Assembly (NCBI GenBank): GCA_964016885.1
Contig: OZ024741.1
Coordinates: forward strand, 80,166,001 to 80,230,000
Direction: 5' to 3'
DNA from: Eledone cirrhosa
Taxonomy: Eukaryota
Length of the DNA stretch: 64,000 bases
Part shown: in pieces, positions 16,737-60,140 of the stretch
How the letters are laid out: each line of letters opens with the position of its first letter
Position numbering within the stretch: position 1 is the stretch's first letter
Notes under the pieces: model-generated
Database searches by the model: none
The model's input: only the letters and a program-made list of their open reading frames with translations
Told to the model about the DNA's origin: nothing
Program-made: the position numbers and the translations under genes

Positions 16737-17065
16737 TTTGGTTCCTTTCCGGTTCGTAAGTTCTTCTGCTTTTCAAAAATAGAATTGAGATGGAGGGTTT
16801 GTGGTTTTTCTCACACACACACACACACATATATATGTGTGTGTGTGAGAGAGAGAGAGAGAGAGAGAGAGAGAGAGAGAGAGAGAGAGAGAGAGAGAGA
16901 GAGAGAGAGAGAGAGAGAGAGAGAGAGAGAGAAACCACAAACCCTCCATTTCAATTCTATTTTTGAAAAGCAGAAGAACTGCGAAACCGGTAAAGGAACC
17001 AAATAAATCTATATTTAAAAAAAAAAAAGACTCCAGTTACATTTTCAATTTCATCTTTTTTCCTT
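16737..17065. mobile_element. Head-to-head PLE pseudo-LTR fragments around a (CA)/(TG)/(GA) spacer
   Basis: 16737-16810 is the diverged reverse complement of 16932-17004. Both outer ends lie in (TA)n. Confidence 0.7.
16955..16998 (+). ncRNA. Minimal type I hammerhead ribozyme, U3-A8 core variant
   Basis: TTGAAAA gcag-aagaa-ctgc GAAA ccgg TA aaggaa. Stem II has 4 bp, stem III is the palindrome ACCGGT, and the cleavage triplet is GUA. Confidence 0.7.
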
Positions 17066-17342
17066 ACATATATATATATATATATATATATATATATATA
17101 TATATATATATATATATATATATATATATATATATATATATATATTTCGTTTCTGAATTTGTTTAGCAACATTCTTTATCTGAAATCGTGTGTTGAAACC
17201 GATATTGTTATACTTTGGGAGGGTCATGTTGCCAATAAGAAACACACGCACCAGTTGCATTCACTTCAATTTATTATTATAATAAATTTATAAATTTCTG
17301 GTTGGTTGATTGGTTCCACAACCAGATAGTTGTTTATATATT

Positions 17343-17385
17343 GTCATAGTTCTTTCGTCACACACTCTGTGACCTCTTCAGTGAC
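17343..17385 (-). ncRNA. Minimal type I hammerhead ribozyme in 3' pseudo-LTR
   Basis: gtca CTGAAGA g gtcaca-gagtg-tgtgac GAAA gaac TA tgac. Stems I and II pair and the core is canonical. Confidence 0.8.
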
Positions 17386-17586
17386 TGGGGATTCCTTTCT
17401 TTGTTTCTGTGCCTCTCCTTTGTTCTGTCCTACGCCATTTTGTTTCTGTGTGTGTGTTGTGTGCTCAGTCTGCGCATGCGCCACATCCGGGTGTCTGTGT
17501 GTGTTTATATTTGTTTATTTATTTGTTTATTTACATGTTACTGGTTGGTTGTTTGTTCTATGTGTGTGTGTGTTTTCATTTTGTCC

Positions 17587-18249
17587 TTAATTGTAAGTTG
17601 TGATGTTGCTGTTCCACTCATATTTTCTATTTAATTTTGGTTGTAATTCTTTTATGTTTATTACCTCTGTGATTTGTCTAAACATTGCGTCTTTTCTGTG
17701 TGTAGATTCTATTTTTATTTCTATGTTCTCTAATTTACTCTTGTGTTCTATTTTAGCATGTTGGTAGAGTACAGATGATTCTTTACTATCTTGAAGGTCT
17801 CGCCAGTGTTCATTTATCCGTTCCCCTACACTACGAGCTGTCTCACCTATGTACACTATATTTTTGTCTCTACATTGTCCTTCAGTACATCTTATGCTAT
17901 ACACTACATTTCTAGTTTTACAGTTAATATGGGGGCTTATTTTACAGGTTATACATTTCTTATCTATACATGAGGGTCTTTGAAAAGGGTATGTCTTGCT
18001 AATAAGTGTTTTTATGGAGGTACCTGGTCTTTCTACTATCTTAATATTGAGTTTATGTTTATTTAGCGCCCTTCTAAATTTGTAAGCTAATTCACCTCTA
18101 GGGGTTGTATCGATGAACATTACACTCTGGTATTTATTGCTATCATACCATGAGTTTATTCTATTAGCCTTGTTCCTAGTTCTTTCTATTCTATTCCAAA
18201 ATTTGCTCCTATACAAGGGGCAGGTCCCATTTATGTCATTATTTACCAT
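17587..18249 (-). pseudogene. GIY-YIG endonuclease portion of the PLE ORF
   Basis: CIDKKCITC linker and NVVYSIRC...IVYIGETARSVGERINEH; separated from the RT by an in-frame TAG. Confidence 0.85.
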
Positions 18250-18255
18250 TTTTTC

Positions 18256-58300: not shown

Positions 58301-58946
58301 AGACACCCTAAAGTTAATCAACCGAAATTAAAAGCTCTTCCATACATCTCCACACACAACCCCCTCAACAATGAGGCCTTTGATAACACCCTCCAGAACA
58401 TCCATGTATTAAAAAAGGACCATAGAATGAACCAAATCCTTCAAACACACGATATCATAAAGAGCAAAAGACTATCTAAGTCAATGGAAAACATCCTAAC
58501 ACACGCCAAAGTACTGCCAACCACAACAACGAAACCCAGGGTTAAAAAAATGCGATGGACCCAACTGTGGTATATGCATCAACCTAATAGAGGGTTCGGA
58601 ATTCTATTTCAAACAAGGACAATGTTTTATAGTAAAACACTATTTCACATGTGCATCAGAAAACCTAATATATGTATTAACTTGCTCAGGTTGTCGAGAA
58701 CAATACATAGGCCAGACTAAAAACATCTTCTGCCAACGCATGACTGTCCATAGATCCCAAATCAAAATACGGGAATACAGAAAAATAGCACTGAGTGAAC
58801 ACATTGATACCTGTGCCGCCCAAAATCCTCCCAACTTTAGAATCTTTACCCTCTACAAATTTAAAGATACGACCCACACCCAGTGCATGAGCAAGGAATC
58901 TCACTTTATTAACAAATACGGACCCCGTCTAAACACTTCTTCCTAA
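55329..58946 (+). pseudogene. PLE RT-GIY-YIG ORF, disrupted
   Basis: EADKG, PKVHK, LRPIIAG, FDVVNLYSNIP, QKSGTAMG, RYLDD, LPFLD, SCHP, CDGPNCGIC linker and LIYVLTCSGCREQYIGQT. A 43-bp duplication at about 55792-55877, stops and a frameshift near 58550 disrupt it. Confidence 0.9.
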
Positions 58947-59535
58947 GATGAACCCACAACATACACACGTTGACATACATACCTACATCAGCATACATCC
59001 TACATACATTTCTATCCACATATAAACACAATGACATACGTAAACACACATGTTCTATGGTGCAACACAAATATACACAGATTCGCATACCTTTTGATGT
59101 TTATAGATATACACGTGCCGACACGCACACACACACATACGTACACATGTATTGCAAATTGATGGGTGCATACATATTTGTACACAAGTATCCCATACGG
59201 CAGGGCCTAATGGATTCCCCTTGCAGTACATACAATCTGGACTCACACACGCCTTGTTGTTATGACAATACTATACATCATTTCACCTCTTTTATTGTTA
59301 TTGATGTTCTTTTGAGAGAATCGTTTTTGCAAATGACTGAAAATATCGAATAATGTACGCCATTTTTACCAGTACCACAAAAATACTGGTCCATCCACAC
59401 ACGCGCGCGCGCGCACGCATGCACACGCGTACACTAACATACAGACAGGCATACACACACACACACACTTCTCCGTATAAGACAAGAGCTGAGAAATGTT
59501 TCAACATGTTAAAATAATCCCCCCCTCCCCACACA

Positions 59536-59810
59536 CACACACACACGTACACACACATTCCTACTGACCGATTCATTTCCATTATCACAACAATGAACCA
59601 CTTTGCTACACACACACACACACATTTGTCTTAATAGACACCTGAACTGTTGATCTTTCAACACGACTGCAACTCACACACGTACACACACATTCCTACT
59701 GGTCGATTCACTTCCATTATCACAACAATGAACCACTTAGCTACACACACATACACATATTTGTCTTAATAGACACCTGAACTGTTGACCTCTCAACATG
59801 ACTGCAACTC
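59536..59810 (+). repeat. ~135-bp tandem duplication in the PLE 3'UTR
   Basis: CACACACGTACACACACATTCCTACTG...GACTGCAACTC occurs twice. Confidence 0.85.
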
Positions 59811-60099
59811 AATCAGGCAGGCGGAAAAGGACACTCTTCGACAAACCTACATTTGGCGCGAAACCAGTTCGCGCTAAAATCAATTTAAACATTCACGTAA
59901 CTTCTACCGACCAATCAAAATTGTTTTGACTAAGAATTTTTGCAACACGAATTGGCGCGAAATTTATAGTGCTTATTCATGTGACATTCAACAACCAACC
60001 AAATCTTAATACCTCCCAAGCCACTTTCTTCACATAAAAAAGGAAGAATTTCCAAAACTGATCAGATTAGAGCAAAAATCACGATCACACTATCTCAAA

Positions 60100-60140
60100 A
60101 TTATTTTTGAAAAGCATAAGAAATGCGCAACCGGTAAAAA
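60100..60140 (+). ncRNA. Minimal HHR, U3-A8 variant with GAAA changed to GCAA
   Basis: TTGAAAA gcat-aagaa-atgc GCAA ccgg TA aaa; homologous to 16955-16998. Confidence 0.6.

What the first reader, a model, noticed from the sequence alone, without database searches (positions are those of the whole stretch)
16955..60140. U3-A8 core-variant hammerheads in two unrelated PLE lineages, with stem covariation
Seen: instead of CUGANGA the cores read UUGAAAA (16963 and 60107, Neptune-type pseudo-LTR) and UUGAGAA (37086 and its mirror near 33780, Naiad). Both change C3-G8 to U3-A8. The 16963 and 60107 motifs also covary in stem II (gcag/ctgc vs gcat/atgc) while keeping loop AAGAA and stem III ACCGGT. 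Known: positions 3 and 8 form a Watson-Crick tertiary pair, and the U-A swap retains some activity but is uncommon. Inference: variant, possibly slower, ribozymes arose independently in co-resident PLEs, and consensus-motif searches would miss them.
Basis: partly seen in the sequence, partly recalled or inferred. Interest (0 to 1): 0.75.

Follow-up and report, generated by a model that had tools for sequence, protein, structure and literature searches.

The report
Variant hammerheads leave genomic cut marks
Two unrelated jumping-gene lineages in this animal genome carry a predicted self-cutting RNA with an already published U-A swap in its core, and in one of them many short genomic stubs begin exactly at the predicted cut, a likely trace that this variant cuts in living cells, while sister families with damaged cores still multiplied thousands of times.

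Summary
The four motifs are real type I hammerheads in Penelope-like element (PLE) end repeats, and U3-A8 is family-wide: 18,981 Neptune-type and 7,460 Hydra-type motif matches, almost none C3-G8. The swap is published for PLE hammerheads (Cervera and De la Pena 2014). Corrections: the 'Naiad' is a Hydra-clade PLE; 16963 and 60107 are sister families differing by one compensated pair; 60107 also carries A13C, fixed in 4,904 copies; 1,831 Hydra copies have a C3·A8 mismatch. Added here: head-to-head stubs record RNA 5' ends. Hydra stubs start either in loop II (4,359; likely the transcription start) or near the cut (829; 24 of 50 sampled with both arms at the scissile bond). Cut-site starts are about tenfold enriched in the young U3-A8 subfamilies over the C3·A8 subfamily (p=0.0003); the Neptune motifs show little such trace. 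An older, mostly U3-A8 Hydra lineage also shows little, so the 3-8 pair alone does not decide. Best reading: a working but dispensable ribozyme. Cleavage was not assayed. This scan noted U3-A8, C3·A8 and the loop-II start before in this genome, and cut-site starts in other genomes.

The parts
16960..16995 (+). Family A minimal type I hammerhead: U3-A8 core 16963-16969, 4-bp stem II, GAAA, palindromic stem III, predicted cut after 16992 (GUA), weak 3-bp stem I
   Evidence: family size
16740..16779 (-). Inverted copy of the family A motif with a broken right arm; the two arms form one head-to-head stub with microsatellite at the apex
60104..60139 (+). Family B minimal hammerhead in the 3' end repeat: U3-A8 plus A13C (60128), predicted cut after 60136
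   Evidence: C13 in 4,904 copies vs A13 in 29
54923..54958 (-). Inverted copy of the family B motif, private U3C giving C3·A8, also C13
55218..58946 (+). Frameshifted Neptune-type PLE ORF: RT, DKG motif, CX4CX2C linker, C-terminal GIY-YIG
34911..36869 (-). 5'-truncated Hydra-clade PLE ORF (652-codon open frame; DKT, CxCX5C, CxxC, CxH)
33694..33787 (-). Sense 3' copy of the Hydra hammerhead (U3 at 33782, predicted cut after 33699); one private stem II mismatch
37081..37174 (+). Inverted copy of the Hydra hammerhead: 5-bp stem I, core 37086-37092, long stem II, GAAA 37147-37150, long palindromic stem III, predicted cut after 37169 (GUC)
37123..37129 (+). Loop II positions -47 to -41 where all 100 sampled arms of loop-II stubs begin; likely transcription start of the family
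37170..37262 (+). Tail (+1 to +93 after the cut); runs on into the element body in three tandem copies, so it is also the start of the 5' UTR
30316..30436 (.). Head-to-head Hydra stub of an older subfamily whose arms begin within 3 nt of the predicted cut

Best explanation
These are type I hammerhead motifs in the end repeats of two PLE lineages that each fixed the known U3-A8 core pair; the young Hydra version likely cuts its RNA in the germ line at a modest rate, and cutting is likely not required for these elements to spread. Shown: family-wide U3-A8; Hydra stubs starting at two sharp positions, loop II and the predicted scissile bond; mass amplification of C3·A8 and A13C subfamilies. Inferred: Hydra transcription starts inside loop II, so the RNA's 5' end carries only the substrate half of the hammerhead; a complete copy (the 3' repeat or another RNA) pairs with it through the palindromic stem III and stem I and removes a 41-nt leader, or the complete copy cuts itself; RT running off either end leaves the stubs. 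The minimal Neptune motifs would need a dimer, have a weak stem I, and likely cut rarely; family B (A13C) is likely crippled.
For: Cut-site stubs: 829 head-to-head stubs near the cut, control 0; 24 of the first 50 have both arms at +1 by the script's rule, which lets an arm start at +2, 18 of them with junction letters; my stricter hand reading gives 20 and 15. Tail type tracks core type: T-tail 18 of 20 U3-A8, C-tail 30 of 34 C3. Cut-site class: 19 T-tail, 4 C-tail; loop-II class: 10 T-tail, 21 C-tail; odds ratio 10, Fisher p=0.0003. Strict whole-genome patterns agree in direction: 75/82 hits T-tail, 35/34 C-tail. Loop-II stubs: 4,359; 100 of 100 sampled arms start at -41 to -47, 34 at -41; a G not in the reference precedes -41 in 15 arms, as cap copying would give (recalled). 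Penelope has an internal promoter (PMC2377424, passages). Folding: Hydra monomer and homodimer MFEs are hammerheads (-22.8, -62.1 kcal/mol); full plus half copy assembles a core on the half's site (-50.2). Position 7 takes all four bases while positions 8 and 9 stay A in the 100 listed Hydra matches. A versus B: motif 31 of 34 identical in a roughly 70% identical repeat. Dispensability: 4,904 A13C and 1,831 C3·A8 copies; single changes at C3 or G8 cut activity more than 100-fold and at A13 10-100-fold in minimal hammerheads (PMC4075628 citing earlier work).
Against: No cleavage assay and no RNA reads. The older A-tail Hydra lineage, mostly U3-A8 judging by the listed matches, shows 1 cut-site stub against 16 loop-II stubs, so U3-A8 is not sufficient. 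C-tail stubs do start at +1 at a lower rate. Five zero-insertion junctions could be microhomology fold-backs. The two stub classes were caught with different anchors and sampled from the first 50 places of one contig, so the scaled shares (about 27% T-tail, 3.5% C-tail, 1% A-tail) are rough. Whole-motif folding energies do not beat shuffles (z -1.3 to +0.4; the Hydra stretches there lacked the 3' strand of stem I). Stem I of A and B has no predicted pairing in monomer (probability 0.0) or in the dimer MFE. In one deep scan of a type III hammerhead only the G3-C8 swap rescued activity (PMC9901934, passage).
Confidence: 0.62

Rival explanations
1. All these motifs are catalytically dead or negligible relics kept by short divergence time or by overlap with the promoter; the +1 starts are a second transcription start or an RT stop at the G run.
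For: Broken cores amplified to thousands of copies; Naiads spread without canonical hammerheads (PMC8557442 section 15); the Hydra motif overlaps the likely promoter, which could explain its conservation; PLE minimal hammerheads cleave poorly in vitro; low footprint in the A-tail lineage.
Against: Starts fall on the scissile bond itself, and their share differs about tenfold between subfamilies with the same +1 to +6 sequence but different cores.
Confidence: 0.2
2. Cleavage is needed, and the damaged subfamilies are served in trans: C3·A8 RNAs are cut by U3-A8 partners and family B RNAs by family A cores through the shared palindrome.
For: The dimer architecture allows mixed pairs; C-tail stubs start at +1 at a low rate; A and B share ACCGGU and the GUA triplet.
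Against: Most insertions keep the uncut motif and tail; A-on-B stem I would be 2-3 A-U pairs; B stubs show no clear cut-site start (31 stubs).
Confidence: 0.1
3. C3·A8 and A13C are tolerated active variants, so all families cut.
For: C3·A8 is fixed in at least two sequence-distinct Hydra groups; C13 persisted through two B subfamilies; natural core variants with low activity exist.
Against: Lower footprint in C-tail stubs; family A keeps A13 with the same A17, so C13 compensates nothing evident; B subfamilies are young (97-98% identical copies), so persistence says little.
Confidence: 0.08

Closest known systems
Minimal hammerheads of metazoan PLEs, incl. the U3-A8 variant of Schistosoma mansoni Cercyon (Cervera and De la Pena 2014, PMC4209133; parts 1-2 of 4 read)
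   Same: Type I, in pseudo-LTRs, palindromic stem III, dimer-dependent, G10.1-C11.1, U3-A8 core in about 1,300 copies
   Different: Here U3-A8 is the majority state (about 24,000 matches, against 596 with control 375 for one canonical minimal pattern; not an exhaustive count); family B adds A13C; no extra base after A9; stem II only 4 bp in A and B
Hydra-clade PLE hammerheads (Craig et al. 2021, PMC8557442; sections 11, 15, passages, File S1 and S2 text read)
   Same: C-terminal endonuclease, DKT, CxCX5C, (TA)n targets, inverted 5' copy, one-sided tail, hammerhead near the 3' end
   Different: All 26 listed Hydra rows have CUGANGA with short stems; this family has U3-A8 or C3·A8, a 54-nt stem II domain and a long palindromic stem III
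Natural U3-A8 hammerheads (Perreault et al. 2011, PMC3088659; section 8 and passages read)
   Same: Same compensatory core pair, seen in nature and active in vitro
   Different: A13C and C3·A8 are not named in the text read; its Figure 5 and Figures S6-S7 could not be seen
Drosophila virilis Penelope internal promoter (PMC2377424; passages read)
   Same: Transcription starts inside the pseudo-LTR
   Different: Here the inferred start lies inside the hammerhead's loop II (Hydra) or about 69 nt before the cut (family A)

Membership tests
Type I hammerhead ribozyme | Core boxes around a three-way junction with a 3-8 pair and NUH triplet | tested here: met
   16963, 37086, 33782: U3-A8, GAAA, GUA/GUC
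Type I hammerhead ribozyme | Invariant A13 (GAAA box) in family B | tested here: not met
   C13 at 60128 and in 4,904 copies; A13 in 29
Type I hammerhead ribozyme | Stems I, II, III can form | tested here: inconclusive
   Met for Hydra; for A and B stems II and dimeric III form, stem I is not predicted
Type I hammerhead ribozyme | Self-cleavage at N17 | not testable with these tools
   Only the indirect stub footprint
Naiad PLE | N-terminal GIY-YIG, CxC domain, DKA motif | tested here: not met
   DKT; endonuclease-like region at the C-terminus
Hydra PLE | DKT, CxCX5C linker, CxxC and CxH, short single ORF, (TA)n insertion | tested here: met
Hydra PLE | Placement in the Hydra clade on an RT tree | not tested
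Neptune PLE | RT, CX2-5CxxC linker, C-terminal GIY-YIG, microsatellite target | tested here: met
   family A linked through its homologous repeat and a 43% identical endonuclease piece in L110
Neptune PLE | Neptune rather than Nematis by phylogeny | not tested
   Both clades have the linker

The most novel reading that the evidence does not exclude
A PLE starts its transcript inside its own hammerhead, so the 5' end is a half-ribozyme that the 3' copy trims in one direction, and the genome's stubs are a fossil activity assay that ranks natural core variants (young U3-A8 high, C3·A8 low, A13C near none) while showing that transposition does not need the cut.
Probability: 0.35. Interest if true: 0.72.

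Novelty: new variant of a known kind. Interest (0 to 1): 0.45.

Why it matters
The role of PLE hammerheads is stated as unclear in the literature. One genome here offers natural intact, mismatched and A13C cores with copy numbers and a genomic read-out of RNA 5' ends, which gives exact constructs and predictions: cut after C17, higher for young U3-A8 than for C3·A8, and no need for cutting in transposition. It also shows that CUGANGA descriptors miss tens of thousands of motifs. The U3-A8 swap itself is not news.

Tried and rejected
Rfam scan: microsatellite noise, no hammerhead among the rows shown. Register shift (position 7 deleted, C3-G pair) rejected: position 7 varies freely with A8 and A9 constant. 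Ancestral A13 subfamily of B rejected: the 15 A13 loci fetched of 29 scatter over subfamilies and three have C13 inverted mates. C3-G8 Hydra subfamily rejected: 4 scattered copies. Order of U3 and C3 in the Hydra lineage not settled: trees are unrooted and the A-tail lineage had one long copy. My positional control was not a blank; it hit the loop-II hotspot, so no neutral background rate was measured. Long copies beginning at the cut or at loop II were not found among the loci held. My first descriptor missed four canonical motifs with an extra base or U·U at stem II. The genome-wide count of family B start stubs was not obtained, so B's cut-to-start ratio is open. Papers not held: Lunse et al. 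2017 on PLE hammerhead variants and three reviews; they may list A13C or C3·A8. Searches for print on A13C or on stubs at the cut gave no such report in their listings.

Full report
Observation. The 16963 motif (family A) reads core, 4-bp stem II, GAAA, CCGG, UA; the 60107 motif (family B) has one compensated stem II pair but GCAA in place of GAAA, i.e. A13C. Each has an inverted partner: 16776 (broken) and 54955 (C3·A8, private). The 37086/33782 motif has a 5-bp stem I, a long stem II and a long palindromic stem III.

Hosts. B ends a frameshifted RT plus C-terminal GIY-YIG element with a CX4CX2C linker, Neptune-type. A is its sister: repeats about 68-72% identical over about 220 nt, and one A locus has a related endonuclease piece upstream. 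So A and B are one origin of U3-A8, and the covariation is a single pair. The element at 34911-36869 has DKT, CxCX5C, CxxC and CxH and fits the Hydra clade, not Naiad. This removes the surprise of a canonical-order hammerhead in a Naiad, since Hydra elements normally carry one. The two RTs share 22% identity.

Family state. In the 3.0-Gb genome a Neptune-type pattern with positions 3, 7, 8, 13 free has 18,981 matches; 76 have C3, all with A8; 4,904 have C13; B-type stems with A13 number 29 and behave as private changes. The Hydra pattern has 7,460 matches; 1,831 are C3·A8, fixed in at least two sequence groups; C3-G8 appears 4 times under a narrower pattern. A canonical minimal pattern gives 596 matches against a control of 375, and canonical motifs also lie in this window.

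Known status. U3-A8 was reported in nature in 2011 and in PLE hammerheads in 2014, with about 1,300 hits in one genome. All 26 Hydra rows in the 2021 supplement have CUGANGA, so U3-A8 in a Hydra element is an addition. Figures and one key paper could not be seen.

Footprints. A lead from an earlier scan note was that copies may begin at the cut. Two such Hydra stubs turned up unselected, one in this window at 30316-30436. A genome-wide pattern found 829 head-to-head stubs near the cut. Of the first 50, all fetched, 24 have both arms at the scissile bond by the script's rule, 18 with extra junction letters; a stricter hand reading gives 20 and 15. The intended control found a larger class: 4,359 stubs beginning in loop II, all 100 sampled arms at -41 to -47 and 15 with an extra G. 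I read this as the capped transcription start; Penelope has an internal promoter. The stubs' tails identify subfamilies. Young U3-A8 types make up 19 of the 24 cut-site stubs but 10 of the 50 loop-II stubs; C3·A8 types 4 and 21 (odds ratio 10, p=0.0003; with junction letters only, p=0.006). Against a simple reading, the older A-tail lineage, mostly U3-A8, gives 1 and 16. Family A has 1,583 stubs at about -69 and 87 near the cut, of which by hand about 5 of the 48 distinct listed loci have both arms within one base of it, ambiguous because of A/T runs; B has 31, none clear.

Mechanism. The Hydra motif folds as a hammerhead alone and as a double hammerhead in a dimer. An RNA starting at -41 holds only the substrate half; co-folded with a full copy it completes a core on its own cut site while the full copy's site is left without one. 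This would trim the leader and spare the 3' tail, which nearly all insertions keep. Self-cutting of the full copy would give the same +1 stubs, and the data do not separate the two routes. For A and B only stem II and the dimeric stem III are predicted; stem I is not. Single changes at positions 3, 8 or 13 are damaging in minimal hammerheads, yet such subfamilies reached thousands of copies and near-full-length copies with long RT frames exist for both. Cutting is therefore likely real in the young Hydra subfamilies and dispensable overall.

Limits. No assay, no RNA reads, different anchors for the two stub classes, samples from one contig, unrooted trees. Earlier scan notes reached U3-A8, C3·A8 and the loop-II start in this genome; I measured each here. 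A13C and the subfamily contrast at the cut site were not in the notes shown.

Verdict. Real, family-wide, two likely origins, known swap; moderate interest from the footprint and the damaged-core expansions.

Noticed in passing
window 17381 (-) and 21428 (-): Canonical C3-G8 minimal hammerheads in the tandem end repeats of another C-terminal GIY-YIG PLE (ORF pieces 17587-22302, minus strand).
   Followed up: partly
window 22442-23246: 394-bp perfect inverted repeat with a canonical C3-G8 hammerhead in each arm (22941 +, 22747 -), a family also seen genome-wide.
   Followed up: partly
L011:1003-2021: Hydra insertion with strand-biased hypermutation: 58 T>C in one arm and 16 of 17 changes A>G in the inverted arm, all A>G on one strand, resembling ADAR editing of a hairpin RNA before insertion.
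   Followed up: partly
window 55218-55225: The upstream repeat of the family B element jumps from its likely start region to +76, deleting the hammerhead; the junction is not GT-AG; seen once.
   Followed up: partly
window 37447-38694: 528-bp inverted repeat with a CUGAAGA box near 38420 but no type I layout seen; may be the rearranged hammerhead family in other scan notes.
   Followed up: no
window 30694-31896 (+), 13366-13602 (-), 52576-53695 (+): Older Hydra-like and Neptune-like PLE fragments without a recognisable hammerhead downstream.
   Followed up: partly
window 16950-16966 and 60095-60110: In both A and B a short upstream hairpin is predicted to pair with the UUGA core strand, a possible off-state of the monomer.
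   Followed up: no
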